From IMG/VR virus record IMGVR_UViG_3300021400_000045, positions 1 to 64,000 of that record: DNA of 64,000 nucleotides; one strand, 5' to 3'. The stretch's first letter is position 1. Each line of letters opens with the position of its first letter. Below are positions 22,241 through 45,947 of this stretch, one piece after another. The notes beneath the pieces were generated by a model. The model searched no databases, was not told the origin of the DNA, and saw only the letters and a program-made list of their open reading frames with translations. The position numbers and the translations under genes are program-made. The stretch comes from a virus (Duplodnaviria > Caudoviricetes).

Positions 22241-22942
22241 TTGAAAGTCCCCCGTTACCTTGACGAGATCGACCCTAAGACCCTGACCGACGAGCAGCGC
22301 GAAAAGCTCCGCCACATTTACGAGACTGACCCGTATACGTTTTATAACATGTGGCGGGATCCTGCGCAGGCCCAGATCTGGGCTGAAGGCGAAAATTTCG
22401 CGACTGAGCCAGCCAGCGACTACTTCGCCAAGATTGGTGCGCTGAGACTCGCGAGAGCGCCGGAGGCTGTCGTTGACTTCTGGAAGGACGTGCTTGAGCA
22501 CAAAGCCCGCGACGAGAGCGACGATTTGTTGCCGCCCGCGAAGAAGCCAGTGGTCGAGAAGCTCCAGCAAATCGAAGACCTGTGCGAGTATCTCGACGGC
22601 CTGCTGAACTGGGTCGAAGACAACACCGAACCAGACACGCCTGAGGACGATTTCCCAGAAAACATCCCGTTTTCCGGCAAATGGACACGCCTGATGCAAC
22701 GCGCCACCGGCAATATGATAGCCGAGCATCACGACGGCACCGTCCAGCATTTCAGATCCACCGACGTGGTGCAGGCGAACATGGGCGTGGAAGTTGTCGA
22801 AGTGGAACTGGAACCGGAATCAGAAATGATTTTGGATCTGGAAGACTGGGACAAGAATTATATCAAGCCAGAAGCCTGTTCTATCAGCAGAAATGGAACC
22901 AGAACCAGGATCAGATTAGAGTTTTATCACTGCTACGAATAA
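22241..22942 (+). CDS. Acidic hypothetical protein
   Basis: TTG start with RBS GAGGAG. Confidence 0.7.
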   Translation: MKVPRYLDEIDPKTLTDEQREKLRHIYETDPYTFYNMWRDPAQAQIWAEGENFATEPASDYFAKIGALRLARAPEAVVDFWKDVLEHKARDESDDLLPPAKKPVVEKLQQIEDLCEYLDGLLNWVEDNTEPDTPEDDFPENIPFSGKWTRLMQRATGNMIAEHHDGTVQHFRSTDVVQANMGVEVVEVELEPESEMILDLEDWDKNYIKPEACSISRNGTRTRIRLEFYHCYE

Positions 22943-22961
22943 CCGAATACTCATCACTGCG

Positions 22962-22984
22962 ACCGCCTTCGGGCGGTTTTTTTA
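22962..22984 (+). terminator. Intrinsic terminator
   Basis: ACCGCC-TTCG-GGCGGT plus T run. Confidence 0.85.
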
Positions 22985-24897
22985 TGCCCAAAAATCCCGC
23001 ATGAGGGGTTTGCGAGCAACGTTTTTTGCGATCACTGGTCAGACGGAACCAGAAAAGAAAGGAGAATGCAACCTTGAAGAACATCATCATGGTTACAGGC
23101 AAGACCCGTCGCTACATCATCAATCACGTCCGTAAGAACCGCACCCTCCAGCGGAAAGCCGAACGGAACAGGAAACATCTGGATCGGAAGATCTGGGAGG
23201 CGCTGTATGCCTAACTGGATTATTCTCGCGATCCCGCTGGCACTTCTGTACGCCATCGGAACCATAATTGAAGCCGTAAAGGAGCATCACGAACGTGTGA
23301 TGCTCCATTTCATTATCGACGGTGACCGTCTCCAGTCTGAGCGCTGGAATCGGAACCAGAAGCCGAAAATGAACCATGAGCGTCGGTATTGCTGACGCGG
23401 AACCAGAAAGGAGCACAGAATGTACGACGCCAAAACTTGCCACATGATTTGGTCGAATCAGTATCTGGATTATAAGGATTGGAAGGACTGGCTGGAAGAA
23501 GACTATCCAGACCTGACGGAATCGGAACGCGAATCGCTCATGTACGAGCTGAATGACGAGTATCTTGAGGACGAACGCACCAACCTGAACATCTCGCTCG
23601 GAATGCCGATTATCGTCATCGCGGACTTGGGGCTCTGGGACGGACGGCGATCCGGTTACAAGGTTATCGGAACCGGAAATATTTCCGATTGCCTGTACGA
23701 CGATTGCGATTACCTGACGTGGTATGTGGACGGAGTCGGGGATCTGAACTGTGACGCCAGCCATCACGATGGAACAAATCACTACCTGTATAGGGTGTTT
23801 CGCGGCGGAACCACACCGGAACAGATGCGGAATTTGGAACAGAAGATCTACAACGGAACCGCAACCTGGAAGGACATCGCCGGAATCACAACCAAGATCG
23901 GGCCCGCCATCGCGAAAGTATACGGGTGGTGACGGAATGAAAAAGCTACTCTCACTGTTCCTGGTCGTGATTGGATTCACAGCCGGATGGTTGATCACCA
24001 TCCATACTGCGATCCCGCTCACGGAACCGGAAACGAAACACATTCTGATTGTAGACTGGGCAGGACTCGTATGGGAATATGAGCCATAACGGAACCAGAA
24101 AGGAGAACGGAATATGAAGCGCGTTTTTGAGTGGCATGGCAGGAAATACTACCTGCTCGGAACCGGAGCGGATGGCCAAAACCTATGGCTTGAGGAAGCC
24201 AGATTTGATTGCGGATGGTACTGGGGCGTTGGGTACATCGAGAGCTTCACAAATAACAGAGCCCCGTGGAACAGCAAAGATATCGAAATGCATACGCACT
24301 TCGATTACCAGATGGAGAATCAGACGGATGAGTATGGTTGCGCTATGAACTGGCACGACGGATTCAAAAAGATGTGCCCAGAAACCCCGCTGACGGATAA
24401 GGAAATCTGGACGGTTGTCGAGCTCATGCGGAGCCTGTACACAATGCGGCGCTATTCAGACATGATTCATCGCGGAGGGTCGTACTACACCACAAACCCG
24501 CTGTGGAACCAAATCAAGGATCCGACGGAATACGAGTACAACAGAATTAACAAAACACTGATTCCCGCTTTGCTCACGAAGCTGTATAGTATCCTGGACG
24601 GAACCGCGAGGAAGGAAGAAAAGGAGGCCGAACGGAATGGAAAGCAAACTTAAACCCACGATGTACTTTGTGCGAGTCTATGAAGGCTCGTGCAACTTCG
24701 AGTACGAGTACGCCGGATTCGAGCAGGCGGAATCTCATCTGGAATGGGAATTGGAATCCGGTCACTGTGCCTCGCTGTTCGCCCACTACTGGGACGGACA
24801 CGCAGGCTGGGATGAATTCATCCGGTAAAACCAAATACGATTCTTACAGGGACGGAACAGAACACCGCCCCTGTTTTATTTGAAAGGAGAAAATACT

Positions 24898-25599
24898 ATG
24901 GCGTACAAACTTGCTCTCGGCATTACTCAAACGGAACACGAAGGAAAATTGCTTGGGATACCGAGCATTTCCACCTGCTGCCTGACGAACCCCATCTGCC
25001 TGGCACGGATGCAAAACGGAGACAGCGTTTGCGCTCATTGCTATGCCGCAACACTGATGAAAATCAGAAAAGCGCTCAAAGAAGCGATGATCAGAAACAT
25101 GGATATTCTGACGGATCATGTTCTCACAATCGACGAGCTGGACGGAATGGAGATTAAATTCACGCCGAAGATGCGCGAGCTTAATCCCGAAATGTTCGCC
25201 CGCGAAGAGAGCTTCGGAGATGTGTCGAACGTGACTCAGGCCATCAATTACTTCTTGATTGCCAAACGGAACGGCGCTTTCAAGTGGGCAATATGGACTA
25301 AAAACCATTGGATCGTAGCGGAAGCGTATCGGATCCTCGGCTGGAAGCCGGACAATCTTAGCATCGGGTATAGTTCGCCGAAACTCAACGAGGTTGTCGA
25401 TTTGTCTACACTGGATCCAGACTTCGTGAAAATCTGTGACTTTGTTTTCACTGTCTTCACCAAGCAGTTCGCGAAGGAGCACGGAATCAAGATCAACTGC
25501 GGTGGTCGCGCTTGCCGGAAATGCGGGCAGTGCTACAAGTCCAATAAGACCAAGGCCGAGACTGGTCGGATCGTGTATGTCAACGAAGAGTTGAAGTGA
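24898..25599 (+). CDS. GP88-like Cys-rich protein
   Basis: C...C...VCAHCYA, ESFGD, AIWTKN, CGGRACRKCGQCY. Confidence 0.6.
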   Translation: MAYKLALGITQTEHEGKLLGIPSISTCCLTNPICLARMQNGDSVCAHCYAATLMKIRKALKEAMIRNMDILTDHVLTIDELDGMEIKFTPKMRELNPEMFAREESFGDVSNVTQAINYFLIAKRNGAFKWAIWTKNHWIVAEAYRILGWKPDNLSIGYSSPKLNEVVDLSTLDPDFVKICDFVFTVFTKQFAKEHGIKINCGGRACRKCGQCYKSNKTKAETGRIVYVNEELK

Positions 25600-26452
25600 G
25601 GTGGAATCAGAATGGCGCGGAGAATGTATACGGTTAGTGCAATCAATGGTCTCATCAGTGAGGCCGTTGATGCCGGTTATGACGTCGTGACGGTCGAGGA
25701 AGGCGTTCTCGGATTTGGAACCACAGTTCTGATCGCACCGAGGGAAGGCTATTACAATTTCATCGTTCAGGAGCGATACTTGAACGAGTGGTCGAGCGGA
25801 CACACCGTCCGCCGGACTCAGAAGCTGAGCAAGGCGATGATCAAGCAAATCGACGCTGTAATGGAACAGCAAGCGAAAGGAGCATAGTCATGAAATGCCG
25901 TGCTTATTCTGTCGCCTTCAACCGCCAAGAGGACTCTGGCGGAATGAGCGTCATGAAAACCAAGACCGTCGCGGAACCGATATGCGTCGTACCGACGGCA
26001 CAAAATATCAAGGCGGTAATCTGCCTCTTCACTGACCTGCCAATCGACACCCGCTACATGTCCATAGCGGAACAGATTCGGGACGGACTTGACTGCGGAT
26101 TATTCATCATCAGTCTGCGGAGCGATGAGGATCTTGTCAGTTATAGCTTGAGCTTTCTGGAGGTGTGAGGAATGAAAATCGTTTATCAGATCATCATTAC
26201 GGACGAGGATGTCCGGCACGATGTTGAGAGTATCGTCAAAGAAAACTGCGACAACGAATGGATTGAATTTCCAAACAAAAAAGCGCGTGCCGAATTCATC
26301 GACGACTGTGTGGAATACTTTTGCGACCAGTATGAAGATGGATTCTATGACCGTGTAATGGAACGCAATGAATATGAGGCCGTAATAATCGAGTTCGCGG
26401 ACGATTACGGATACAGACTGTATGACATGACGATTGATGAAGGAGTGAAACC

Positions 26453-26845
26453 ATGATCGGAATCTACGTCCACAACAGCATCGGTGTCCCCTATGCGGAC
26501 GCAATCGTGAACGGCGGCAAGACCGTGGAAACTCGGACGCGTGACGTTCTCGGAAGGTTCGTTGGCGAGCCTGTGGCAATAGTACGGACTCGCGACCGGC
26601 ACCCGGCGGACATCATCGGAATCGTGGCAATCGTGCATAAAAAATTCTGTACAAAAGAAGAGCTGGACGGAATGCGGGATGAAACCTGCATTCCACCTGG
26701 ATCGAAGTTCGACTGTAATGGAAAAGGAAAGTGGTGTTACTTCCTGACGAACCCGATGAAGCTGACCACGCCGATTCCGCTGAGTGATGTAAAAATCATC
26801 AAGCGGAATATGAGCTGGTGTGAGTTTGAACTGAAAGGAGAATAA
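26453..26845 (+). CDS. ASCH-domain protein
   Basis: PYADAIVNGGKTVETR motif. Confidence 0.75.
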   Translation: MIGIYVHNSIGVPYADAIVNGGKTVETRTRDVLGRFVGEPVAIVRTRDRHPADIIGIVAIVHKKFCTKEELDGMRDETCIPPGSKFDCNGKGKWCYFLTNPMKLTTPIPLSDVKIIKRNMSWCEFELKGE

Positions 26846-27318
26846 CAATGGCCCTGGCTACAAAGGAACAGGAGCGGCAGGCACTCCAGAAGATCAGAAA
26901 GATCGTTGCAGACCTTGGCGATCAGTCTTATATCGGAATGGCGTTTGAGGGCTGTTTCGAGATTGCCGAAGAGAATATCGAAAATGACTTCGGCTGCTCG
27001 ATGAAGGAGCGGGCGGAAGCCGCCGAAAAGAACATCGAGCTTGCGCGGAAGAAATGCGAGGAGCTGAAAGCCAAGCTGGATCAGGCAGAAGAATGGAACG
27101 AAGGCTGGCATCGAAAGTGTGACGCGATGCAGGAAACGATCGATAAAATGCAGGAGCGGATCGACGAAAAAGACGCTGAATTGCACGAAGAAAAGGTTGC
27201 GCGTGGAATGACGGAAATCGACCGGATCAAGACCGATGATGAGATCAAGAGTCTGAAGGCCGAGATCATTAAACTGAAAGCGAAACTGTACGACCTGATG
27301 GTGGAGGAGGAATAACAA

Positions 27319-27717
27319 ATGAAAATTGCCCGTGAAGTATTCGGAACAAAATTCGAAATTGAACTCACGGAACAGGAGGTCGTGCAGGCGCACATCTCAT
27401 ACATGGAAAAAGCAACTGGCAGTAAGGTCGGGATTGGCGACACTGTGATGCCTCGCAAGCCCAAGATCCTGTACAACGACGGACTGCTGAAGGCGCGGGA
27501 CGAGATTGACAAGTATAGGCACTGCCCGTTCGTAGTTGGACGGATCATTGATGAATATCTTGACGATATATGTTTAGCCTATCTGGACGGAATGTCGTCC
27601 AGCAAGCTCGCCGCTCTACTGAACGTATCGCCGCTGACAATACGTCGGCACATTCAGAAAGCTGGATTAGAGATCAAGCCGAGGGTTCGGGATCTTTACG
27701 CTATGCAAATCGCCTGA
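27319..27717 (+). CDS. Protein with C-terminal HTH
   Basis: YLDGMSSSKLAALLNVSPLTIRRHI. Confidence 0.7.
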   Translation: MKIAREVFGTKFEIELTEQEVVQAHISYMEKATGSKVGIGDTVMPRKPKILYNDGLLKARDEIDKYRHCPFVVGRIIDEYLDDICLAYLDGMSSSKLAALLNVSPLTIRRHIQKAGLEIKPRVRDLYAMQIA

Positions 27718-28164
27718 CGGAAGGAGAAATGAAAATGATTTATACGGATGAAGAGCTCGCCATCCTGAGAGAGAACACCAAGCAGATCGAGGGCTACCTT
27801 CGGAACCTGATGCCGCGCCTCAGGGAAAGCATTCACATTGAGTTCGGCGATACTGTTGTTCGCAGAGGGGATTATGGGTGCAGAGCTTATGAAAAGGAGT
27901 TCGATTTATGGGTAAGTAAGAACGATATCTTCGGCGGGTCTGGCGGATTGAGATACAGCTTTGAACCCGTGGAGGGATATCACTGCGGCCTGATTGAGAT
28001 CTACAAAGACAGGGGTTACGGCGGCAAGTATATGGCCTCGCTGTGCAATAACTGGCAGAGCGTCAAATGGAATATCAATCAGGCGATTGGCAGGCAGGAA
28101 GCCAAGGTCGCCAACATCCACAGCTTTGTTTTGTGACTTGTCAACCGGACTGAGAGGTGATATC

Positions 28165-28488
28165 ATGAAAGCGAAAGAGCTGACCAAGCTCGACCGGAGC
28201 GTGAACTACATCCTGTTCGCTCTGGACGAGTACATGCTGAACCTGTGCGGAAAGAGGTACGATTGGAACACGATCAACCTCTATCACATCCCGCTGATCA
28301 ACGGGAACTACAAAGGGAACCAAGTGCAGGTCACGTTCAACCTGCCAGGAAGGAAGGTGAAGTACTGGCTGAACGGAAAAAACGTGGAGGTGGACAACTA
28401 CTACAGCTACGACAGTGAGGACATGGCGATGGCCGTTTCGGAATGGAATGGACGGAACTTCCTCGGCGAGTTCGACTTCTTTATCTGA
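28165..28488 (+). CDS. Hypothetical protein
   Basis: RBS GAGGTG; TTGTCA...TATCAT promoter-like sequence overlaps the RBS. Confidence 0.6.
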   Translation: MKAKELTKLDRSVNYILFALDEYMLNLCGKRYDWNTINLYHIPLINGNYKGNQVQVTFNLPGRKVKYWLNGKNVEVDNYYSYDSEDMAMAVSEWNGRNFLGEFDFFI

Positions 28489-28499
28489 GAGGTGATCGA

Positions 28500-29186
28500 A
28501 TGGATCCAAGAGACGTTATATGGCTGATCCTCATCGGACTGTTCTTCCTGATCCGGTGGTTCAATGGCTTTGTTCACAGGCAGGAAGCTGTGCAGGGTGC
28601 CAAGGACATGGATATGGCGTTGGCCAAGTATGGTGAGCTGACGCCGGAACTGAAAGAACAGCTCGAAAAGACCACAGAGGACATAATGGAAACCTATTAC
28701 TGGCGTGGCATCAAGTGGGCAACCGATCCGTATCACAACTGGCTCGGCTATCAACCGCCACAGTTTGACTGGATGGATTGCTACAAGGATCCCGATGCCA
28801 TGAAAGCGCACATGATGCAACTGTTCAGTAGCGGCTACTATAACCTGTACGGAACCGGAAAGCTGGCATTCATCACGATCGCGGAAACGCAACGCGAATA
28901 TATGACACCGCTTGCCAAGCGTTGCATCGACAAGATGTTACCCTATCTTCCAAAGAGGAACATGCCGCCGGACTGGAGAACGAAATTCAATCCGCCGTGC
29001 GAGAACGTAGAGTGCCGCAAGAAAATTGCGGAGATGACCAACACGATGGCCCGGAGCTGGCTGTGCGTTACGGACGAACAGCTACAACTGAGCAAAGAAC
29101 AGGAGCGCTATGTGGAATCACAAGCGCCAAGAAGACACTGGACTGACAACAATAACAACTTCAACGATACCTTCAGGATGGACTGA
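28500..29186 (+). CDS. Membrane-anchored hypothetical protein
   Basis: N-terminal VIWLILIGLFFLIRW; followed by a terminator. Confidence 0.65.
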   Translation: MDPRDVIWLILIGLFFLIRWFNGFVHRQEAVQGAKDMDMALAKYGELTPELKEQLEKTTEDIMETYYWRGIKWATDPYHNWLGYQPPQFDWMDCYKDPDAMKAHMMQLFSSGYYNLYGTGKLAFITIAETQREYMTPLAKRCIDKMLPYLPKRNMPPDWRTKFNPPCENVECRKKIAEMTNTMARSWLCVTDEQLQLSKEQERYVESQAPRRHWTDNNNNFNDTFRMD

Positions 29187-29225
29187 CAATTGAATAAGTA
29201 ACCGCGACGAATATTGAAAACGATT

Positions 29226-29254
29226 AGGACTGTGAGTTGTTCGCAGTCCTTTTC
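29226..29254 (+). terminator. Intrinsic terminator
   Basis: AGGACTGTGA...TCGCAGTCCT followed by TTT. Confidence 0.6.
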
Positions 29255-29830
29255 ATTTAGAAAGGATGGACGGAATGATTAACACATTTGGATTAAAGAT
29301 GACCGGACTGAGCGAAGCCGCGAAGTCCACCAACGAGTATCCGTGGTGCGGACTGCACTACGACGAGCTGTTCTACAACATTCGCACCGGCAAGGTATGG
29401 ACGGTGCATCAGGTTTCCCTGAATCATGCTTCGGAAACGGAATATGATAATCCGTCCATCATCAAGGTCGGAAATTGCACGAGCCGACTGACGGAACAGC
29501 AGTTGGCCGTGAAGATATATCGTGGTCTTCAGAAGGCAGGCCGCATCACGAGAGCGTGAAAGGAGCAGGAACTATGAAGATGACGCCGAGAGAATTGTAT
29601 GAAGCCCTGGTCACCGCAATGCCAGAGGATCAGATCGACCACCATGAATCAGACCTGTATGTGAAAGTCACGAACACCAGTATGAAAATCATCCATCAGT
29701 CTGGATTGATTCGTGGACATGGGTACACAACGTTCGTGGATCAGATTACGAATACGTTATGGTACGATATCGCTTTCTGCTACTCACCGTTCTGGGAGGA
29801 GCATGCACGGAAACAGGAAGGAGAACAGGT

Positions 29831-30163
29831 ATGAAGACATTTGAAGTGAAGACGCCCTACAGTTACGAGCCAGAATGCGTCCTGGTTCTGAACAAGTACG
29901 CCAACAATCAGCACATCGCCCTGAGTGTATGGTGTGAGGACGGGCCGTTCGCTGACATCACGGTAAATCTACCGGAAACAAAGCGGCATCCGAATAACTT
30001 CGGATTTGTGGACACCAACAACTTTCCGCAGGCACATAGGTTGATCAAGGAACTTGGAATCGGAAAGCCCACTGGAACATATGCTCAGAGCGGCTGGTGC
30101 TACTACCCCTTGTACGAGTTCGACCTTGACAAAATCAAAGAGTGGACGGAAGGAGAAGAATGA
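29831..30163 (+). CDS. DUF4313-like protein
   Basis: PFADITVNL, FVDTNN, QSGWCYYPLYEFD. Confidence 0.65.
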   Translation: MKTFEVKTPYSYEPECVLVLNKYANNQHIALSVWCEDGPFADITVNLPETKRHPNNFGFVDTNNFPQAHRLIKELGIGKPTGTYAQSGWCYYPLYEFDLDKIKEWTEGEE

Positions 30164-36316: not shown

Positions 36317-36333
36317 TGTGACATAATGTCACA
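36317..36333. promoter_or_regulatory. Second copy of the operator TGTGACATAATGTCACA
   Basis: Matches 16998-17016 in reverse orientation. Confidence 0.6.
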
Positions 36334-36551
36334 AATCGAAAGGAACAGGAACCATGATTCACATGCATATCGTCTGGTACGACCGGAAGGAAGACTTTAC
36401 GCCCAACTATGACGCTGACCATCATGGTACGATTGCCGGAGCCACGCCGCAGGAATGTATGCGGCAGTTCTTTGAACTCAGAAGCAATCACGACCTCGCG
36501 AAGTACACCTGCATGGAGATCAGCTTCATCTACTGACGGAAGGAGAACAGC

Positions 36552-37121
36552 ATGGAAACAGTATTCAAGGCCGACGATTTCAACACCATCCTCAAGTCCT
36601 GCGGACTGGCAGTCACTGACAAATACGATGGGCGGGTGGTTCTGCGGAACATCTGCCTCGACATCTGGCGTGACCACTGTGTGGCGGTGGCGTTGGATGG
36701 AACCATCCTGATGCAAGTCACTGTTCCCTGCGAGTCGGATGTGACGGAGAAGACGCGCATCCTGCTCCAGCCCCTGAAGCCGGTGCCCAAGATGACCCAT
36801 GTCGTCATCACATCGCCGGACTCCAGCCCCAGACCGGAGCGGATCGAGATCAACTTCAACCGCTATTCCTACACGGAGTTGACGGTCGTGCAGTATCCCG
36901 TGAAGGGCGATTACGTTGACTACGAGAAGATCATCCCAGCGGAACGCACGGAGTACAGGATCGCTGTCAGCCCGAAGAAGCTGATGACCGTCCTCAAGGG
37001 GATCGACTCCAAGTATGTGTGGCTCTCCTTCGGCAAGCCGCTGGAATCATTCCTCGTCACGCCCACGGATGAAGAGCATGACATCACAGGCCTGGTGCTT
37101 CCGGCTCGGATCAGCTCCTGA
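36552..37121 (+). CDS. Truncated beta-sliding-clamp-like protein
   Basis: LRNI...AVALDG, GDYVDYEKIIP, C-terminal GLVLPAR; 189 aa versus about 370 for a full clamp. Confidence 0.6.
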   Translation: METVFKADDFNTILKSCGLAVTDKYDGRVVLRNICLDIWRDHCVAVALDGTILMQVTVPCESDVTEKTRILLQPLKPVPKMTHVVITSPDSSPRPERIEINFNRYSYTELTVVQYPVKGDYVDYEKIIPAERTEYRIAVSPKKLMTVLKGIDSKYVWLSFGKPLESFLVTPTDEEHDITGLVLPARISS

Positions 37122-37122
37122 T

Positions 37123-37151
37123 TTGACAGGCCAGAACACGGGCAGTATAAT
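37123..37151 (+). promoter_or_regulatory. Perfect consensus SigA promoter
   Basis: TTGACA-17 nt-TATAAT. Confidence 0.85.
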
Positions 37152-37177
37152 GGTCGCACGAAAGGAGGGAATATCGC

Positions 37178-37384
37178 TTGTACATTTGCACGGTTGAAAG
37201 CAACTCGACCAGCCCTCGTGAGTACGAGGTGGACACCAAGTCTGCGATGCGATGTGCCAGGAAGTACGGACGCTGCGAAGGCGATGAGACCGTGACCGTC
37301 CGCACCAAGTCCGGCAGAATCGTATCGTGTGTGAAGTGGACGCCGCAGGACGGCGGACAGTACTACTACGCTCACACCATGTGA
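37178..37384 (+). CDS. Small protein in a stand-alone transcription unit
   Basis: TTG start, RBS AAGGAGG, own promoter and terminator. Confidence 0.7.
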   Translation: MYICTVESNSTSPREYEVDTKSAMRCARKYGRCEGDETVTVRTKSGRIVSCVKWTPQDGGQYYYAHTM

Positions 37385-37395
37385 GCAGAACAGGA

Positions 37396-37421
37396 ACCGC
37401 CATTGACGGCGGTGTTTTTTA
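37396..37421 (+). terminator. Intrinsic terminator
   Basis: ACCGCC-loop-GGCGGT-GTTTTTT. Confidence 0.75.
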
Positions 37422-37776
37422 TTGGAGGGAATATGGCGTTAGTTGTGTATTCATGTGAGACCTGTGGCCGTGTCTGGGCCACGGAGGAGGAAGCGAACAC
37501 CTGTCAGGCCACGCACCAGCTGGTGACAGCCGTCAAGGAATGCCGGTTCAAGAAGAGGGCCGACCCTGAAAAGTATCCCAGCAGTCTCGTCTGCACAATG
37601 GCCGATGGAGCGGAGCTCATCTACTACATCGGACGTGCGGAAAACCAGACGGCGAAAGCGCTGGATTACAAGTCCCAGCGGCGGGCACAGAACCAGCCCA
37701 GCGTAAGAGCTTAACGATCATACGGATTAAACCATGACAGCGATCTGGAATCCGTTTACAGAAAGGAAAATTGAAT

Positions 37777-38934
37777 ATGAAGTTGGGGAGTTTGTTCTCC
37801 GGTTCCGGCAGCTTTGAGCTCGCCGGACTTTTTAATGGGATCGAACCCGTGTTTAATTCGGAAGTAGATGCCTTCCCTGTAGCAGTCACGGATAAACGGC
37901 TCCCCAACGTCAAGCAGTTGGGCGACGTAACGAAGATCAGCGGAGCGAAAGTCGAGCCGGTGGACATCATCACCTTCGGTTCGCCGTGTCAGGATCTGTC
38001 CATCGCCGGTAATCAGGCTGGCATCCATGAAGGAACCAGAAGCTCCCTGTTCTTTGAAGCCATCAGGATCATTAAGGAGATGCGGAATGCAACATCAAAT
38101 CAGTTTCCAAGATTTGCTGTCTGGGAAAACGTCAAGGGATCTCTCAGCTCCCACAGCGGAGCAGACTTCAAAGCCGTCCTCGAAGCGTTCTGCGAAGCCG
38201 CAGGAGCCGACGTTCATGTACCTCTCCCTGAAGTCAACAAAGGGAAATGGGCCACAGCCGGAACCGTCGTGGGAGATGGTTTCTCGATTGCCTGGCGTGT
38301 CTACAACGCCGTCGGTTGGGGCGTTCCCCAGCGCCGTGAGAGAGTCTACCTTGTCGCAGATTTTGGAAGCGAACGTGCCGGAGAAATACTCTTTGAGTCC
38401 GAGAGCGGCGACGGGTATTCAACGCAGAGCTACGAGGCGTGGCAAGCCTTTGCCTTCGGTACTGAAGGAAGCGCTGGACGAAGTGATAGCCAGTGCATGA
38501 TCTGGGATGCCCGTGGCAATGGCGACGGACTCACTTCCCCCACCATCACCGGCGACCACAACAACCGGATCACCGACTATACCGCCGTCATTGTAGAACC
38601 GAGACCTGCGACCCACTACTTCTCCATGCAGCGCTTCGATGAGTTCAAGGAGAGCGATGCGGCATCCACCCTCAAACAGCGTGACTACAAAGATGTAACA
38701 GACATCGTGGTCGAGGAACGGGAACCAATACAGGAACGCAAGTACATCGTCCGGCGGCTGACGCCCACGGAAAGCCTGATTCTTCAGGGCTTGCCGAAAT
38801 GGTGGTGCGATGATGTGAAAGGTCGGTCGGACACAAAGGTCTATCGTCTCAGTGGGAACGGCATCGCTCTCCCCTGCGCGATCGATGTCCTCTATAAAAT
38901 CACCAAAGCATACGACATGAAAGGAGCGGCGTAA
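37777..38934 (+). CDS. C5 cytosine DNA methyltransferase (alpha polypeptide)
   Basis: LFSGSG (motif I), GSPCQD (IV), WENV (VI), PQRRER (VIII), RRLTPTE, GNGI (X). Confidence 0.9.
   Translation: MKLGSLFSGSGSFELAGLFNGIEPVFNSEVDAFPVAVTDKRLPNVKQLGDVTKISGAKVEPVDIITFGSPCQDLSIAGNQAGIHEGTRSSLFFEAIRIIKEMRNATSNQFPRFAVWENVKGSLSSHSGADFKAVLEAFCEAAGADVHVPLPEVNKGKWATAGTVVGDGFSIAWRVYNAVGWGVPQRRERVYLVADFGSERAGEILFESESGDGYSTQSYEAWQAFAFGTEGSAGRSDSQCMIWDARGNGDGLTSPTITGDHNNRITDYTAVIVEPRPATHYFSMQRFDEFKESDAASTLKQRDYKDVTDIVVEEREPIQERKYIVRRLTPTESLILQGLPKWWCDDVKGRSDTKVYRLSGNGIALPCAIDVLYKITKAYDMKGAA
38087..38500 (+). CDS. Nested alternative-frame methyltransferase beta polypeptide (M.EcoHK31I-type)
   Basis: Own RBS AAGGAG; STLSQILEANVPEKYSLSPRAATGIQRRATRRGKPLP. 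Confidence 0.7.
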   Translation: MQHQISFQDLLSGKTSRDLSAPTAEQTSKPSSKRSAKPQEPTFMYLSLKSTKGNGPQPEPSWEMVSRLPGVSTTPSVGAFPSAVRESTLSQILEANVPEKYSLSPRAATGIQRRATRRGKPLPSVLKEALDEVIASA

Positions 38935-40010
38935 TGAGAAAACTTGCAAGCGTTCAGGTCATCTGGAATGTGGAACCCATCGAGGGTGCGGACAGGATCG
39001 AGCTTGTCCATGTCCTCGGCTGGCAGTGCGTGGCCAACAAGGGCCAGTTCAAGAAGGGCGATGTCGGAGTGTATTTCGAGATCGATTCCTTCCTCCCCAT
39101 CCGTGAGGAGTTTGAGTTCCTGCGGGCTTCCTCATACAAGAAGACGGACATCATGGGCGAGGGCTTCAGACTGCGGACTCAGAAATTCCGTGGCCAGCTC
39201 TCTCAGGGACTGGTGCTTCCGCTGTCTGTCTTCCCTGAGATCCCGGCGGACACGCCTGTCGGAACCAGCGTAGCGGAACAGCTCGGTGTCATAAAGTGGG
39301 AGATTGAGGAACGCGCCACCACTGGAGGCACTGTTGCCGGAGTACTCCCCGCCTGTGTGCCTCATACAGACGAGACGCGAGTGCAGAACGAGCCGGATCT
39401 CCTTCAGGAGTTTGCCGGACTGGAATACTACATCACAACCAAGATGGACGGCTCGTCTCATTCGATTGCCATTGACGAGGACGGAATGCACGTCACCGGA
39501 CACAACTTCGAGTACAAGGACGATGGTTCAAGTGCCTTCTACGAGTTCGTGAAGAAGACCGGTATTCTGGAACGGGTCAAAACACTTCACGATATTGTTC
39601 GCGACAGGCACTGGTTCTGTGATGACGGAGAGGAATTGGAATCTCTGGTCGTTCAGGGTGAGTTCTGTGCTCCCGGCATCCAGAGGAACCGCCTGAAGCT
39701 GACGAAGCCGGAATGGTACGTGTTCACCATTATCGTGAACGGCAACCGCCTTGGAATGAAGGATATGGTCATGCTGTGTGACGCCGCTTCCCTGACATAC
39801 GTGCCGATCGATGAAGTGGACACTGATCTTCCATCCAAGTATCCCACGGTGGAAGCCATACTGGAACGAGCGGACGGGCAGTATCCCAACGGCGGGCCGA
39901 ATGAGGGGCTGGTCATCAGGCCGACTGTACCGGTCATATCCAAGACAATCGGAACCTGGCTTTCCATGAAGGCCATCAACAACAAATACCTGCTGAAGAA
40001 TAAGGAGTGA
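38934..40010 (+). CDS. RNA ligase, DRB0094/Rnl5 family
   Basis: RKLASVQ...IEGADRIE N-terminus; KMDGS (motif I), QGEF, EGLV, SMKAIN. Confidence 0.85.
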   Translation: MRKLASVQVIWNVEPIEGADRIELVHVLGWQCVANKGQFKKGDVGVYFEIDSFLPIREEFEFLRASSYKKTDIMGEGFRLRTQKFRGQLSQGLVLPLSVFPEIPADTPVGTSVAEQLGVIKWEIEERATTGGTVAGVLPACVPHTDETRVQNEPDLLQEFAGLEYYITTKMDGSSHSIAIDEDGMHVTGHNFEYKDDGSSAFYEFVKKTGILERVKTLHDIVRDRHWFCDDGEELESLVVQGEFCAPGIQRNRLKLTKPEWYVFTIIVNGNRLGMKDMVMLCDAASLTYVPIDEVDTDLPSKYPTVEAILERADGQYPNGGPNEGLVIRPTVPVISKTIGTWLSMKAINNKYLLKNKE

Positions 40011-40014
40011 GCCT

Positions 40015-40263
40015 ATGAACATGGAATACGCGGCAATGCGGATCGTGCGTGAATATGCGCTGGAACACCTCGACAAGTCCGACTCCGTGCCGGACTTCGA
40101 TGTGTTCACGGTCTGGAAATGCAAGACGTTGCAGAACTGGAAGTTTCTGATCAGCACGAGCCTGTACGACGGAATGTACTATGAGCTGACCTACAACGGT
40201 GACCAGCAGGAATGGTATCTGGACGCCTACAAGAAGTTCGAGAACAGGGTGGTGAAACTGTGA
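40015..40263 (+). CDS. DUF6275-like protein
   Basis: VWKCKTLQNWK..ST...DGMYYELTYNGD..EWYLDAYKKFEN. Confidence 0.75.
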   Translation: MNMEYAAMRIVREYALEHLDKSDSVPDFDVFTVWKCKTLQNWKFLISTSLYDGMYYELTYNGDQQEWYLDAYKKFENRVVKL

Positions 40264-42884
40264 TGGATCGTGATGAATTGATTGAGGCCCTCAAACATTG
40301 TGCACTAGATAAGGAAGAACAGTGCGATGGCTGCCCCGGCGAGAACGGTATATGTTGCAGGTATATGAAGGATGGCTCGTGGGCCGAGGTTCCTCAGAGT
40401 CTGGTGAAACAGGTACTGAGTGAACTCGGAAACGCTACTGCGGACTATGAGCGCGGGCAGAGGGACGCGTGGGAGCTGGCCCAGAAGATCCTAAAACCTG
40501 TCATCGACGGCGGGTATTCGCATCAGCAACTGCTGGATATCTTTGGGGATCACGACGCAACAGCTGCTGATATCATAACAGAACTAGCGATCGATCGCGC
40601 CGTCGCAAGAGTCAAGGAATACGAAAAAAGAATTGCCCTCCATGTCGGCGATGAAGTGCTGAACTTGGCGGGTGTACGCCTGGTAGTGCTCAAGCGGCGG
40701 GAGGATGGATTGGTCTATACGTCTTCGGCGAACGGCGATGTGGACATGTACAAGCGTGATCATCTGACCAAGACGGGGAGGCACTTCGACGAATTGGAAC
40801 AGCTGATGAAGAAGATGCAGAAGGAGTGAGGCTGCGCACGATGGAGATGGTGAATAAGGTTTGCCCAAGGTGCGGCAATGCCAATTACGTAGTGAGCATC
40901 GGTGAATTCAGCAAAGCATTTCCTTACAAGTGTATAAACTGCAACTCTTATTTGACGGACGAAGATTTTGCCGTGAACAGCAGAGAGCTGAAGGAACATG
41001 TGATGGTCACACCCGAAAGGCGTTACATCAATCCCGACCCGCATTTTGATACATACAGGTGTATGGGGTGTGATTACATGCGTCTGCATTATGGTCAGCG
41101 TTATTGCGGTGGGTGCGGGAATGAGGTGAAGTGGGATGAGACCGATTGACGCGGACACGCTAAAAAAAGACCTGACACGGTTCTACTACGGCGATGTAAC
41201 AGCAAGAGAGCTTATTGACGAACAGCCGACCATTGGCTGGATCAGCGTCAAGGATCGCAAGCCGCCAGCGATTCCTGGTACCGGCGAGCACTTCAGGAAA
41301 GAGAACAAGCCCGTACTGTTGCTTGCTGGCAAGCAGGGCTCCGTCTATGTCGGCTGGTACATCGGCGAAGATTACAGAGGGATCGACTGCTACATCTCCC
41401 GTACCAGCCTGAACGCTTTCCAGTACATCACCAGGAAGATCACCCACTGGATGCAGATACCGGAATTGTGTGAGGAGGATCAGCAATGATAACAGTAACG
41501 TTTGACGCGACCGCCCTGTTCATAGGCTTCTTCATCGGAATGTTTGTCGGTGCACTGCTTTCCCTCTTTATCGAAACGCGAGAGGGCGGGCCGTGGAGCG
41601 ATGGATACACAACTGGATACCGTAGCGGAACGGAGCTGCGGAAGTATATTGAAGAGTCAGTAAGAAAAGAATTGTCGAAGGAGTGATGAGCATGACCGTG
41701 CGCGACTTGATGGAAGACCTGCTGGACGCGGAATGCCGCGACAGCATAGTGATTACGATCCCCTTGTTGGACGGGACGGAAGCAGTAACGGAAATTGCCG
41801 ACGTGCACGTTCGCAACTGGGGAGTCGAGATCGTGACGGGGATGATCGACGCTGCGCCGAACCCGTGCGCGAACTGTCAGGAGTTCTCCTGCGATGGGTG
41901 TGCGCATGCGAAGGAGTAGCCTGTGGACTTGAAAGATTTTGTGATTGATAAGGTGCTTGGCCTGAAATGCGAACCCGTTATAAAAGGAAATGGTACACAA
42001 ATGAGCTTTCAGGAATATGCTGACTGGATTCACGATGACATCACCTGGTGCAGTGACATCGGGTGCGCGTTCATCAACTGTGTGCGGAACCAGGTCAACC
42101 GCCGTAGCAAGGACGGCCCCTATTCGATGGCTGACTTCGCCGGAACGGACGAGTGTCCGCTGGAACACATGAAGAACCAGAGATGGGAGATGACCTATGA
42201 GACTGATCGATAAGGACGCGCTGATCGAGGCCATCGGCGAGGAACCGGAAGTCTGGATACCGGACGATTATACACAGGGCCTCCACGACCAGTGGATCTG
42301 TGATCTGGAAGCGATCAACTCCCTACCGGAGATCAACGCGTGGAACCGCGTCGCCCACTGGACATATGATCGGCCTCACCACTGGTTCTGCTCTTCCTGC
42401 AAGACCATGCAGGGCTTAACGGCGCGGATCATGAACTTCTGTCCCCAGTGCGGAGCGAAAATGGAAGGCGGTGCTACCGAATGAGTCCGCTGGCTGTCGT
42501 CGCGTTGTTGTTTCTGATACTGCTCGCCCTGCTCGTCGGCTTTATGGGCGGAGTGATCTACTCTGTCGACCATAATGTAAAGGAGATTTTGAAATGAGTA
42601 TTGTTGCTGTCGTGATTATCTGCTCCCTGCTGTTCCTGCTCGGCTTCACCACCACCGCCGCCATGTTCTGCATGCGTGAACGGAATACCGCCAATGACCG
42701 TTACAACCGTCTGTACGAGGCGTGGCACAATCAGGTCGAAGAGATCACCAATCTTCAGTCCGACATCGCCTGGGCGGAATCGCAGAGGGACTACTGGTGT
42801 GACAAGTATAACGACATCGTCGCTCCCGAACCTTCCAAGACCAGCATCGCCGTGCCCGCCACGAAGGAAGGTGATGTGGCTTGA
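40263..42884 (+). other. Run of small accessory genes (Zn ribbons, DUF551-like, membrane proteins)
   Basis: 40263-40829, 40826-41149, 41136-41489 (WISVKDR...ITHW), 41486-41686, 41683-41919, 41923-42213, 42197-42484 (MRLID...CPQCGA), 42594-42884. Confidence 0.75.
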
Positions 42885-42984
42885 TCAGTGTCTGGCATCT
42901 CGTGTGGATCATGCCGCTGTCTGCGGTCTTCGGTCTCTTCGTCGCAGTGCTTGCGATCGCGGCGAAATTCAGAGGTGATGCGGA

Positions 42985-43845
42985 ATGAATATGCCATTGC
43001 TGCGTGCAGAGCAGATCTGGGAAATCCTCATTGAGTTCATCAGGAATCCCTACGGCGTTGCCGGTGTAATATGCAACCTGTATGCGGAGTCTGGTTTGAA
43101 CCCGAAAAACCTGCAAAACAGCTACGAGCGCCGCCTTGAAATGTCGGACGATGAATACACCAAAGCAGTGGATGAAGGCCGGTACAAGGATTTTGCCACG
43201 GACTCGGCGGGCTATGGTCTGGCTCAGTGGACGTACCGTTCACGGAAGCAGAACCTGCTGGCCTTCGCCAAAGCTGTCGGCCAATCCATTGGCAACATGA
43301 ATATGCAGTGCCTCTTCCTCTGTCTGGAGCTGTACAATTACTCCATCGTGCTGGCCAAGCTCAAGAACGCCACGTCCGTCCGCGAAGCGTCCGACGCCTT
43401 CTACTATCAGTACGAGAAGCCATCGTCCTCGTCAAGCGACGACACGTCCTCTGCGGACAACCGCGCTGCATTTGGTGAGGAATTCTATCGGGCCTTCGGT
43501 AATATCGGGCCGAAGCAGGATCTGTCCGGTCTGGAGTACCGGGTTCTGAAGCGCGGAAGTAAGGGCGACGATGTGGCGAAGCTGCAGCGCGGACTGAAAA
43601 ATCTGGGTTACACGCTGGATGTGGACGGCGGGTACGGCGTTCTCACGGAACGTCAGGTGATGCAGTTCCAGTCCGACCACGGGCTGGCGGTGGATGGCAA
43701 GGCCGGTGCTTTCACACAGGTCATCGTGAGCCATCTGTTGGAAATGCAGAACGACAAGTACTACACCGTGCGCGTCAAAGGACTCACAGAGACGGAGGCG
43801 ATGGATCTCAAGGCCCGGTATCCCGACGCCGAAATTATTAACTAA
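42985..43845 (+). CDS. Phage tail-lysozyme-like muramidase with peptidoglycan-binding domain
   Basis: GVICNLYAESGLNP, GYGLAQWT, YEKP; LKRGSKGDDVAKLQ...FQSDHGLAVDG. Confidence 0.8.
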   Translation: MNMPLLRAEQIWEILIEFIRNPYGVAGVICNLYAESGLNPKNLQNSYERRLEMSDDEYTKAVDEGRYKDFATDSAGYGLAQWTYRSRKQNLLAFAKAVGQSIGNMNMQCLFLCLELYNYSIVLAKLKNATSVREASDAFYYQYEKPSSSSSDDTSSADNRAAFGEEFYRAFGNIGPKQDLSGLEYRVLKRGSKGDDVAKLQRGLKNLGYTLDVDGGYGVLTERQVMQFQSDHGLAVDGKAGAFTQVIVSHLLEMQNDKYYTVRVKGLTETEAMDLKARYPDAEIIN

Positions 43846-44050
43846 TTGTTAAGTTCGGTTCACAAAATGTTTCAGTTTGACGGACACGTTCCCAAATTTT
43901 GGGATTGCGCCGAAAACGTCTGATAATACATCAGATTTATCATATAGTTCTTCCCGTTTTCCGGTCAAAAGTTGTCCTTTACAGGAACGCGATTGGCCGT
44001 TATCATAGATGTGCGATCGCTACCAAATGCATTGAAAGAGGAGTAAGTGA

Positions 44051-45130: not shown

Positions 45131-45162
45131 AATCGCCGCTCTTTCCTATATTGGGTTTACCC

Positions 45163-45946: not shown

Positions 45947-45947
45947 T

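What the first reader, a model, noticed from the sequence alone, without database searches (positions are those of the whole stretch)
22800..43000. Strong strand-specific CGGAA enrichment across the early region
Seen: in 23041-24060 I count about 27 GGAA (about 20 CGGAA) on the + strand against about 2 TTCC. A similar-sized + strand coding stretch at 62.2-63.2 kb has about 2 GGAA. The motif occurs in all frames (ACG GAA, CGG AAC, GGA ACC) and between genes, sets in near 22.8 kb and appears to fade toward 43 kb, so it is not simple amino-acid bias. Inference: a distributed polar signal overlaid on about 50 unrelated genes. Options are binding sites for a protein that coats or translocates first-injected DNA, RNA sites for a processive antiterminator or translational regulator (CsrA recognises GGA), or a Chi/KOPS-like motif.
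Basis: partly seen in the sequence, partly recalled or inferred. Interest (0 to 1): 0.78.

Follow-up and report, generated by a model that had tools for sequence, protein, structure and literature searches.

The report
One-strand CGGAA word marks early genes
A large SPbeta-like gut/rumen phage and two diverged relatives write the five-letter word CGGAA about every 170 bases through one strand of their ~24-kb early-gene block and nearly erase it from that strand elsewhere. Selection keeps this label in place, but what reads it is unknown.

Summary
The window is bases 1-64000 of a 116-kb phage with a YonO-type RNA polymerase and SPbeta-like gene order.

- **Counts.** On the + strand of 22.8-47.2 kb, about 60 small + strand genes carry 141 CGGAA against 10 TTCCG.
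- **Not a spelling effect.** CGGAA is the top-ranked of all 1024 5-mers under three nulls: synonymous-codon permutation (130 vs 74.7, z about 9), frame-specific dinucleotide models (130 vs 33) and frame-specific trinucleotide models (130 vs 75). It is enriched in all three frames and between genes. Codon choice bends towards it: Gly is GGA in 60% of C_A contexts against 29% elsewhere.
- **Purged elsewhere.** Outside the block, + strand CGGAA is 3-10 times rarer than base composition predicts, whichever strand codes. The - strand is near expectation.
- **Conserved.** Two diverged relatives show the same partition with the same boundaries. Only 25% of aligned sites keep their position, so density, not individual sites, is maintained.
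- **Not explained by** repeats, a longer motif, predicted RNA loops, Shine-Dalgarno avoidance alone, or a foreign-block signature.
- **Absent from** SPbeta itself.

My best reading, at about 40%, is an orientation-specific label read during or after rightward early transcription. A DNA-level reading remains open. I found no paper describing it. The scan has noted comparable one-way word arrays on other phage DNA.

The parts
22800..47200 (+). Early-gene block carrying the oriented CGGAA overlay (about 60 small + strand ORFs, C5-methyltransferase, RNA ligase, endolysin-like, ParB-like, Erf, exonuclease)
   Evidence: 141 CGGAA vs 10 TTCCG. CGGAA is rank 1 of 1024 5-mers under codon permutation. 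Per-gene counts. Annotation.
23040..24110 (+). Densest stretch. It includes three copies of CGGAACCAGAAAGGAG placed just before start codons.
   Evidence: 18 CGGAA in the 23001-24000 window; about 10-21 per kb in the first three called genes here. Repeat family D2. Upstream contexts.
22804..22825 (+). First cluster: three consecutive hexamer units GGAACT GGAACC GGAATC at the 3' end of gene 22241-22942
   Evidence: This cluster is not conserved in the relative G001.
22961..22985 (+). Intrinsic-terminator-like hairpin with a T run directly before the block; conserved in relative G001
22986..23073 (+). Leader of about 80 nt conserved with G001. It is a candidate early promoter or 5' UTR and ends in the first CGGAACCAGAAA.
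   Evidence: Sequence comparison. Promoter function is not shown.
28138..28166 (+). Sigma-A-like promoter inside the block (TTGTCA-17-TATCAT with TG)
   Evidence: Consensus match only.
29226..29250 (+). Internal terminator-like hairpin in an intergenic gap
37123..37151 (+). Perfect sigma-A consensus promoter (TTGACA-17-TATAAT) inside the block
   Evidence: It suggests host RNA polymerase transcribes at least part of the block.
37396..37413 (+). Internal terminator-like hairpin
47200..64000 (+). Replication and nucleotide-metabolism block (same coding strand) from which CGGA(A) is purged
   Evidence: CGGAA 3 vs 13 expected. 0.19 times the base-composition expectation. In the third phage CGGA is the single most depleted 4-mer.
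1..17000 (-). Late structural block (genes on the - strand) whose + strand is almost free of CGGAA
   Evidence: 0 CGGAA on the + strand in 17 kb. TCCG is the most depleted 4-mer on the coding strand of the late genes (71 vs 150, z -9).

Best explanation
**Shown.** CGGAA is a selected, orientation-specific word. Its core is CGGA/GGAA, and it often occurs as two hexamer units, CGGAAY-CGGAA. It is written at high density through the sense (+) strand of the early-gene block, in all frames and between genes. It is kept off that strand in the rest of the genome. Selection maintains density, not individual sites.

**Inferred.** The array is an address label for the early block, read in one direction. 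The most likely reading point is the nascent or finished rightward early transcripts, or the non-template DNA strand inside the transcribing polymerase. Examples are early-mRNA shut-off by a sequence-specific ribonuclease (as T4 RegB does at GGAG), or elongation/antitermination control across the terminators that punctuate the block.

Many weak, interchangeable sites would act additively. Their density is greatest in the promoter-proximal units, where it matters most.
For: 1. **Real and specific.** CGGAA ranks 1 of 1024 5-mers under codon permutation and under frame-specific di- and trinucleotide nulls. Among the 16 NGGAN words only CGGAA stands out, at z +8.4 here and +7.7 in G001.
2. **Nucleotide-level selection.** Synonymous choice depends on context. 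Gly is GGA in 60% of C_A contexts against 29% elsewhere (p 1e-7). Thr is ACG in 78% of cases before GAA against 33% (p 4e-6). The sign is reversed in the other blocks. Enrichment is seen in all three frames and in intergenic DNA at 7.4 per kb.
3. **Conserved in diverged relatives.** In G001 (107 kb; early orthologues about 28-78% amino-acid identity) CGGAA is 118 vs 68, rank 1. In G002/G004 it is 81 vs 55, rank 2. Both have the same start and end relative to the gene map.
4. **Density kept, sites not.** 59 vs 55 copies lie in aligned orthologues, but only 15 of 59 keep their position.
5. **Block-specific overlay, not a foreign signature.** The general codon-context profile of the early block correlates with the other blocks (r 0.6-0.7) as well as they correlate with each other. 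CGGA and GGAA are the top differential words in both phages.
6. **Fits a transcription-linked reading.** In G001 the first CGGAA comes right after a conserved terminator and leader. Density falls roughly stepwise along successive gene groups. The word sits on the sense strand. It is purged from the sense strand of the replication block. Several sites abut the Shine-Dalgarno sequence, as CGGAAGGAG or CGGAACCAGAAAGGAG.
7. **Tandems.** Six-nucleotide tandems are enriched (20 vs 6.0, z 6.6; G001 11 vs 5.0). All 22 + strand GGAANNGGAA of the 116-kb genome lie in the block. This is natural for an oligomeric single-strand binder.
Against: - No reader protein was identified. Pfam and PHROGs scans of about 50 of the phage's proteins found no ribonuclease or RNA-binding domain beyond a weak ASCH hit.
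- CGGAA is not preferentially unpaired in predicted RNA structure: 0.083 against a mean of 0.119.
- The word is also strongly depleted on the + strand of the late region, where that strand is antisense. A purely sense-RNA model does not predict this. It points to a DNA-strand reading or to genome-long rightward transcripts. That depletion is broader, however, covering CGGAT, TGGAT and TGGAC too, and may have its own cause.
- The one divergently transcribed gene with a sense-strand excess (19474-20292: 6 vs 2.4) does not replicate in G001.
- The block has several promoters and terminators, so it is not one transcript.
- No expression data exist.
Confidence: 0.4

Rival explanations
1. The word is a DNA-level array of oriented protein-binding sites, stoperator-like or coat-like. 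A phage repressor or histone-like protein binds co-oriented CGGAA(Y) units on duplex DNA. This silences the early block in the lysogen or shuts it off late in infection.
For: - The phage looks temperate and SPbeta-like, with an integrase-fold gene at 17980-18864 beside the switch region.
- Oriented repressor-site arrays are known: L5 stoperators (my own knowledge) and SPBRE/MrpR (PMC10516654).
- The + orientation is purged in sense and antisense contexts alike outside the block.
- Tandem hexamer units are enriched.
- Small HTH proteins conserved in all three phages lie in the block, at 27319-27717 and 33278-33685.
Against: - A 5-bp word with no flanking information is far shorter than known operators of 13-15 bp.
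- The word has 141 copies, about 92% inside ORFs, with 75% positional turnover.
- No longer repeated element exists in the block.
- Simple duplex binding gives no reason for the 14:1 orientation bias.
- The integrase-fold protein shows no sequence similarity to MrpR.
- The switch-region genes differ in the third phage.
Confidence: 0.22
2. The word is a polar signal for a DNA-processing machine that reads one strand. Candidates are a Chi-like site for host AddAB, a loading or orientation site for a translocase or helicase during DNA entry or packaging, or a nicking or priming site.
For: - The partition follows the + DNA strand whatever the coding strand, in three phages.
- Density rises towards the end of the block that would enter the cell first, if the packaging start lies beside the RNA-polymerase/switch region as in SPbeta (inference).
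- The phage encodes a primase-helicase, a ParB-like nuclease, Erf and an exonuclease at the distal end of the block.
- Density-based selection with site turnover is typical of Chi and KOPS (the comparison is my own knowledge).
Against: - Chi, KOPS or primase sites should be useful genome-wide. Here the word is confined to 21% of the genome and removed from the same strand elsewhere.
- For AddAB entering at the near end of the block, the word lies on the 5'-ended strand, which is the wrong one. From the far end, 17 kb lacks it (reasoning).
- Known primase sites are trinucleotides.
- The physical ends and packaging direction are unknown.
- In two sampled Clostridia genomes both CGGAA and TTCCG are over-represented on coding strands, which is a symmetric pattern.
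Confidence: 0.15
3. The enrichment is a passive by-product with no signal function. It reflects amino-acid and codon usage of small acidic early proteins, Shine-Dalgarno-like (GGAG) avoidance pushing GGA into other contexts, or a host-like oligonucleotide signature retained only in the early genes.
For: - Part of the sixfold contrast is composition. Early proteins recoded with the codon usage of the rest of the genome would still give 40 CGGAA, or 1.7 per kb.
- Glu makes up 9.0% of residues, and GGA and CGG codons are commoner in the block.
- NGGAG words are depleted.
- Some Clostridia genomes reach 2.5-3.6 CGGAA per kb of coding strand, with z up to 16.
Against: - The enrichment survives every protein-, codon- and di/trinucleotide-preserving null at rank 1.
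- Only CGGAA among the NGGAN words gains. CGGAT, AGGAA and GGGAA do not.
- The same GGAG avoidance exists in the other blocks without any CGGAA gain.
- In the Clostridia genomes the reverse complement is enriched too, unlike in this block.
- The signal persists across relatives whose early proteins share only about 28-78% identity, where a passive signature should have decayed.
- The general context profile of the block matches the rest of the genome.
Confidence: 0.08
4. The pattern is shaped by a restriction or defence system that recognises an asymmetric short site containing CGGA. The phage avoids the site outside the early block. Inside the block, same-orientation sites are harmless or act as a decoy.
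For: - CGGA is depleted on both strands outside the block.
- The genome shows classical restriction avoidance. GGWCC is essentially absent (0-1 copies against tens expected per block), and GCWGC and CCWGG are depleted.
- Five-base asymmetric restriction sites exist, for example TspGWI at ACGGA, and T7 carries all its EcoP15I sites in one orientation (both from my own knowledge).
Against: - Avoidance does not explain an active 1.7- to 4-fold enrichment.
- About 100 copies in the opposite orientation remain elsewhere, so head-to-head pairs exist.
- The three phages avoid different palindromes (GGWCC here; GATC, CTAG and GGCC in G001), which implies different hosts or restriction sets, yet they share the same CGGAA pattern.
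Confidence: 0.07

Closest known systems
Stoperators of cluster A mycobacteriophages (L5 gp71) and SPBRE/MrpR of Bacillus phage SPbeta
   Same: Both are asymmetric repeated sites in a temperate phage, co-oriented with transcription, and used to control lytic genes. SPbeta has the same overall gene layout and a homologous YonO polymerase (25% identity over 514 residues, E 2e-24). SPBRE is described in PMC10516654. The L5 stoperator comparison rests on my own knowledge.
   Different: Those sites are 13-15 bp, number roughly 10-30, lie mostly in promoters or between genes, and are conserved in position. Here the word is 5 nt with no flanking information, has 141 copies, lies about 92% inside ORFs in all frames, and shows 75% site turnover. 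SPbeta itself has no comparable 5-mer overlay.
Chi (RecBCD/AddAB) and KOPS/SRS (FtsK/SpoIIIE) polar genome words
   Same: These are short oriented words kept by selection on density, not on individual sites. They are written through coding sequence and read from one direction.
   Different: They are distributed genome-wide and follow replication direction. Here the word is confined to one 24-kb block and purged from the same strand elsewhere. The word is 5 nt, A-containing and not G-rich. No link to a host enzyme has been shown.
T4 RegB endoribonuclease targets (GGAG in early-gene ribosome-binding sites)
   Same: A short purine word is concentrated in early transcripts and allows early messages to be handled as a class. 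Several sites here abut the Shine-Dalgarno sequence.
   Different: RegB sites are GGAG and sit mainly in translation-initiation regions. Here GGAG-type words are depleted inside genes, the word is spread evenly along ORFs, and no RegB-like or other ribonuclease gene was found in the proteins scanned.
One-orientation EcoP15I sites of phage T7 (Type III restriction evasion)
   Same: There is an extreme orientation bias of a short asymmetric word in a phage genome.
   Different: In T7 the whole genome carries one orientation, so no head-to-head pair exists, and the word is not enriched. Here the word is enriched in one block, and about 100 copies of the opposite orientation persist elsewhere.
CsrA/RsmA binding sites and sponge RNAs (GGA in hairpin loops)
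   Same: There are many GGA-containing sites on one RNA.
   Different: The excess is specific to CGGAA, not to A(N)GGA or to GGA in general. Total GGA is near the permutation expectation in G001 (757 vs 748). The sites are not preferentially unpaired.

Membership tests
Stoperator / SPBRE-type oriented repressor-site array | Asymmetric site of about 13-15 bp with a conserved consensus | tested here: not met
   There is no information outside the 5 fixed bases (at most 0.1 bit per flanking position). No longer repeat family was found in the block.
Stoperator / SPBRE-type oriented repressor-site array | Sites co-oriented with transcription | tested here: met
   141 sites on the sense strand against 10 on the antisense strand
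Stoperator / SPBRE-type oriented repressor-site array | Sites mainly in promoters or intergenic gaps, with a few tens of copies | tested here: not met
   130 of 141 copies lie inside the called ORFs, spread evenly along genes
Stoperator / SPBRE-type oriented repressor-site array | Bound by the phage master repressor | not testable with these tools
   This needs EMSA or ChIP. The integrase-fold protein 17980-18864 shows no sequence similarity to MrpR.
Chi site (AddAB/RecBCD) | Over-represented across the genome in the orientation that meets the enzyme entering from DNA ends | tested here: not met
   The word is confined to 22.8-47.2 kb. It is 3-10 times depleted on the same strand elsewhere.
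Chi site (AddAB/RecBCD) | Host genome shows one-sided over-representation that follows replication direction | tested here: inconclusive
   The host is unknown. In two sampled Clostridia genomes both CGGAA and TTCCG are over-represented on coding strands.
Chi site (AddAB/RecBCD) | Recognition by the host helicase-nuclease | not testable with these tools
   This is a biochemical assay.
KOPS/SRS translocase-guiding words | G-rich octamers whose skew flips at the terminus, genome-wide | tested here: not met
   The word is a 5-mer, limited to one block, with no flip.
CsrA/RsmA sites or sponge | GGA presented in single-stranded loops, in an A(N)GGA context | tested here: not met
   Unpaired probability is 0.083 against a mean of 0.119. 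The excess is specific to CGGAA. Only 40% of sites have A at position -1.
T4 RegB-type early-mRNA cleavage sites | The word is concentrated in early transcripts | tested here: met
T4 RegB-type early-mRNA cleavage sites | The word lies in ribosome-binding regions, and a RegB-like nuclease is encoded | tested here: not met
   There is only a twofold bump at -25 to -12. No nuclease of that kind was found in the proteins scanned. Not every ORF was scanned.
Type III restriction evasion by strand bias (T7/EcoP15I) | All copies in the genome share one orientation, so no head-to-head pairs exist | tested here: not met
   About 1.1 copies per kb in the opposite orientation across the late blocks
Primase recognition sites | Short sites, usually trinucleotides, spread along the lagging-strand template | tested here: not met
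   The word is block-limited and is purged in the replication and late blocks.

The most novel reading that the evidence does not exclude
CGGAA is a 'reserved word'. This phage clade keeps one pentamer off a whole DNA strand except in the early block, where it is written every ~170 nt through unrelated genes. It would serve as an address label for a dedicated one-way reader, either an early-transcript-specific nuclease or elongation factor, or a strand-tracking DNA motor. That would be a new class of temporal or regional control signal embedded in coding sequence. Different phage lineages may use different words.
Probability: 0.35. Interest if true: 0.85.

Novelty: new variant of a known kind. 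Interest (0 to 1): 0.68.

Why it matters
If a factor reads this word, it shows that phages can tag a whole temporal gene class with a dense, degenerate, orientation-specific code laid over protein-coding sequence. Discrete operators, promoters or nut-like sites would then not be the only way to do this.

It would also give a direct handle on how large SPbeta-like phages of gut and rumen Clostridia separate early from middle and late expression, or handle their first-entering DNA. Neither is known for this group.

The signal is easy to test.

The partition statistic used here (enriched in one block, purged from the same strand elsewhere) can be applied to other phage genomes. The scan has already noted other one-way words on other DNA: ATATT in Gordonia phages, ATAACAG in SPbeta-like Bacillaceae phages, and a GTTAG island. 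The phenomenon may therefore be general.

Tried and rejected
- **Longer motif or repeat family.** The context logo shows no flanking information. Self-BLAST of the block finds one 25-bp pair and no CGGAA in repeated DNA. The repeat finder finds only ribosome-binding-site contexts.
- **RNA-loop presentation (CsrA-like).** Not supported.
- **Gene-position effect.** The word is spread evenly along genes, with only a mild bump just upstream of the Shine-Dalgarno sequence.
- **By-product of Shine-Dalgarno avoidance.** NGGAG words are depleted, but the gain is concentrated in CGGAA alone.
- **Foreign-block signature.** Rejected by the profile correlation.
- **Sense-strand enrichment in divergently transcribed switch genes**, as a test of RNA versus DNA reading. 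It is 6 vs 2.4 in 19474-20292 but does not replicate in G001 or G004, so the test is inconclusive.
- **More relatives.**
  - Anchoring on the two switch-region proteins found only G001.
  - RNA-ligase anchors gave 14 loci, most from less related phages without the signal. Two of them (L005, L008) are instead enriched in CCGCA, GCGGC and GCCGC in both orientations.
  - A distant prophage relative in Clostridiales Family XIII bacterium PM5-7 (polymerase 52% identical) shows no clear enrichment.
  - SPbeta shows neither CGGAA nor ATAACAG enrichment. ATAACAG is at chance in this window.
- **Host identification.** The first genome scan found nothing.
- **RNA families.** Rfam gave no hit at gathering threshold in the window.
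- **Candidate reader proteins.** The protein atlas gave no usable hit for 20994-21914 or 22241-22942. Pfam at E up to 1 gave nothing meaningful.
- **Literature.** A search for CGGAA with bacteriophage and early genes found nothing relevant.

Full report
**What the sequence is.** The window is bases 1-64000 of a single 116,012-bp virus record. I divide the genome into five parts.
- Late genes on the - strand at 1-17 kb, continuing at 64.6-116 kb. These include a portal, a large terminase and a YonO/RdRP-type two-barrel RNA polymerase.
- A switch region at 17-22.9 kb with an integrase-fold gene.
- About 60 small + strand genes at 22.9-47.2 kb, called block E here. The larger genes are a C5-methyltransferase, an RNA ligase, an endolysin-like gene, a ParB-like gene, Erf and an exonuclease.
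- A + strand replication and nucleotide-metabolism block at 47.2-64.5 kb, called block M.
- Ribosome-binding sites of the GAAAGGAG type.

The polymerase is homologous to SPbeta YonO (E 2e-24), and the gene order matches SPbeta. A distant relative is a prophage in a Clostridiales Family XIII bacterium. I take this to be a temperate, SPbeta-like phage of a Clostridia host.

**Check of the observation.** Across 22801-47200 there are 141 CGGAA against 10 TTCCG, and 341 GGAA against 66 TTCC. CGGAA is the most strand-asymmetric 5-mer in the block. It is also the 5-mer that best separates block E from all other coding strands, with a ratio of 6.0 and z of 14. Density is highest in the 23-24 kb window and in its first genes. 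It then falls to about 8, then 4-5, then 2-3 per kb, and stops at the primase-helicase gene. Only 3 copies occur in the called genes from there to 64.5 kb.

**Is it more than coding bias?** Yes.
- Permuting synonymous codons within each gene gives 74.7 +/- 6.3 CGGAA, against 130 observed in ORFs.
- Recoding the same proteins with the codon usage of the rest of the genome gives 40.
- In an unbiased scan, CGGAA ranks first of 1024 5-mers and GGAA first of 256 4-mers.
- Frame-specific Markov nulls that keep codon-position dinucleotides or trinucleotides give 32.8 and 75.5. CGGAA is again rank 1. Only the order-3 model, which already contains CGGA and GGAA, absorbs the excess.
- All three frames are enriched, and intergenic DNA carries 7.4 per kb.
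- Codon choice depends on context. Gly is GGA in 60% of cases when preceded by C and followed by A, against 29% otherwise. Thr is ACG in 78% of cases before GAA, against 33%. The same tests have the opposite sign in the other blocks.
- Among the 16 NGGAN words only CGGAA stands out, at +8.4. NGGAG words are depleted, as expected from avoidance of internal Shine-Dalgarno sequences. That depletion cannot account for a gain concentrated in a single word.
- There is no flanking consensus, no repeated DNA and no longer element.
- Two-unit tandems (GGAANNGGAA, typically CGGAAY-CGGAA) are enriched at 20 vs 6.0. All 22 + strand copies in the 116-kb genome lie inside the block.

**The rest of the genome.** The table shows + strand CGGAA relative to base composition. 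The - strand stays between about 0.5 and 1.8 times expectation everywhere.

| Phage | Early block | Replication block | Late blocks |
|---|---|---|---|
| This genome | 4.0x | 0.19x | 0.00x and 0.19x |
| G001 | 3.5x | 0.62x | 0.35x |
| G002/G004 | 2.6x | 0.30x | 0.11x |

- Against codon permutation, TCCG (that is, + strand CGGA) is the single most depleted 4-mer on the coding strand of the late genes here: 71 vs 150, z -9.
- CGGA is the single most depleted 4-mer in the replication block of the third phage: 25 vs 62.
- The partition therefore follows the DNA strand, or rightward transcription, and not the coding strand.
- One caution applies. In the late genes the antisense depletion also covers CGGAT, TGGAT and TGGAC, and the Ser codon TCC is rare there. 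That part may have a separate cause.

**Relatives.**
- G001 (IMG/VR, 107,314 bp) is syntenic. It aligns only in patches at 67-80% nucleotide identity, apart from two short pieces near 90%. Its early-block orthologues run from about 28 to 78% amino-acid identity.
- G001 has the same regional profile. CGGAA is again rank 1 (118 vs 68), and CGGA and TCCG are depleted outside the block. It also has the same terminator and a conserved leader before the first copy.
- G002 and G004 appear to be two overlapping fragments of a third phage. They show the same start, the same end at the ParB/Erf/exonuclease genes, and rank 2 for CGGAA.
- In codon alignments of 27 orthologue pairs, 59 and 55 copies are present but only 15 share a position. 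That is 25%, against 14% for all 5-mers. Density is conserved and sites turn over.
- The general codon-context profile of block E correlates with blocks M and late (r 0.59-0.68) about as well as those correlate with each other (0.70). CGGA and GGAA are the largest differential words in both phages. Block E is therefore not a foreign block with a different signature.
- More distant relatives (the Family XIII prophage, most RNA-ligase-anchored loci) and SPbeta itself lack the signal.

**Could it mirror the host?** In 201 sampled Clostridia genomes the tandem CGGAAYCGGAA is often commoner than its reversed control. In two genomes I examined, CGGAA is over-represented on coding strands at 2.5-3.6 per kb. 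TTCCG is over-represented there too. That symmetric bias differs from the one-sided pattern here, and its density is below the first units of the block. The true host is unknown, so this rival is reduced but not eliminated.

**Mechanism.**

What is shown: a selected, oriented, density-type word confined to the early block, removed from that strand elsewhere, and shared by a clade.

What is inferred: the level at which it is read.

I favour a transcription-linked reading, on RNA or on the non-template strand, at about 40%. The reasons:
- The domain begins at a terminator and leader.
- The word lies on the sense strand of genes that look host-transcribed. There is a perfect sigma-A consensus promoter at 37123-37151, and there are internal terminators at 29226 and 37396.
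- Density declines roughly stepwise along successive gene groups.
- The word is removed from the sense strand of the next temporal class.
- It forms 6-nt tandems, which suit an oligomeric single-strand binder.

Against this reading:
- There is no preference for unpaired RNA.
- No candidate nuclease or RNA-binding protein turned up in the roughly 50 proteins scanned.
- The purge extends to the antisense strand of the late genes.
- There are no expression data.

The rivals:
- A duplex-DNA, stoperator- or coat-like array, at about 22%. It is attractive for a temperate SPbeta-like phage, because SPBRE/MrpR is a known oriented array in SPbeta (PMC10516654). A 5-bp word inside ORFs with 75% turnover is unlike any known operator set, however.
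- A one-strand DNA-processing signal (Chi-like, translocase, nick or primer), at about 15%. It fits the DNA-strand partition but not the confinement to one block. For AddAB the geometry is unfavourable.
- A passive origin, at about 8%.
- A restriction-driven origin, at about 7%.

**Comparison with what is known.** The signal works like a polar genome word of the Chi, KOPS or stoperator kind. It fails the defining features of each family that I could test (see the membership table). I found no paper describing a CGGAA or similar overlay in phage early genes.

Earlier notes of this scan, which are AI notes and not independent evidence, describe comparable one-way words on other phage DNA:
- ATATT in Gordonia phages.
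- ATAACAG in SPbeta-like Bacillaceae phages.
- A GTTAG island in a genome otherwise cleared of that word.
- 15-20-bp SPBRE-like arrays.

I tested two of these leads here. ATAACAG is at chance in this window and in SPbeta. No long SPBRE-like element exists in the block.

**Verdict.** The feature is real, conserved and under selection. It is a new variant of the oriented-word kind of signal, and its reader is unidentified. Interest is 0.68.

Noticed in passing
whole genome; counts from the coding sequences of blocks E, M and late: GGWCC is essentially absent. GGACC is 0 vs 29 expected in the early block, 1 vs 59 in the late genes and 0 vs 13 in the replication block; GGTCC is 0 in all three. GCWGC, CCWGG, CACGT and CTAAG are also depleted. 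This is classical restriction-site avoidance, beside a phage C5-methyltransferase gene at 37771-38934. The relative G001 instead avoids GATC, CTAG and GGCC, which suggests different hosts or restriction sets.
   Followed up: partly
window 51462-54972: The DNA polymerase gene is split into two ORFs, 51462-52637 and 53077-54972. The insert gives a full-length but sub-threshold match to the group I intron model (RF00028, 52625-52941, 27.3 bits, E 7e-5). About 140 bp of the insert (roughly 52.82-52.96 kb) matches many Firmicutes phages, including the SPbeta group.
   Followed up: partly
window 9422-12232 (- strand): The YonO-type RNA polymerase is in two ORFs. ORF 10400-12232 (610 aa) is the N-terminal part. 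ORF 9422-10117 (231 aa) aligns to residues 605-812 of the 819-aa single-ORF relatives (E 1e-46). The gap of about 280 nt gives a weak group I intron hit (16.4 bits, E 0.09). G001 has its polymerase split at a different place.
   Followed up: partly
window 57265-60030: The anaerobic ribonucleotide reductase (NrdD) is split by an HNH endonuclease gene. The N-terminal part is 57265-58698, the HNH gene is 58932-59534, and the C-terminal part is 59494-60030. G001 has a single 635-aa ORF.
   Followed up: no
window 49850-51350: A low-GC island (about 40-46%) holds seven or eight tiny ORFs of 35-106 aa. Each is preceded by the nearly identical context ACTTAAATAGGAG(T/G)TT. It looks like a cassette array with a shared translation-initiation or junction element.
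   Followed up: no
window 17276-17431 and 19034-19116: AT-rich direct repeats (units of about 54 and 87 nt) lie beside the integrase-fold gene. Two 35-nt direct repeats 48 nt apart lie in the switch region. These are candidate operator, attachment or origin elements. The 17-18 kb stretch is only 34% GC.
   Followed up: no
genome 67569-80204 and 87336-94625 (outside the window, - strand): Two giant ORFs of about 4211 and 2429 aa lie in the late region. A tape-measure-fused virion RNA polymerase is known in Thermus phage P23-45 (preprint 10.1101/2022.12.01.518664). I did not examine whether these giants carry such a domain.
   Followed up: no
loci L005 and L008 (other large phages found through the RNA ligase): In these loci the most over-represented 5-mers under codon permutation are CCGCA, GCCGC and GCGGC (z 6-8), apparently in both orientations. 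CGGAA is depleted. This may be a different repeated palindromic element.
   Followed up: no
window 19474-20292 (- strand): This divergently transcribed switch-region gene (272 aa, no family hit) carries 6 CGGAA on its own sense strand against 2.4 expected. Its G001 counterpart has a GGAA excess (12 vs 6.7) but no CGGAA excess.
   Followed up: partly
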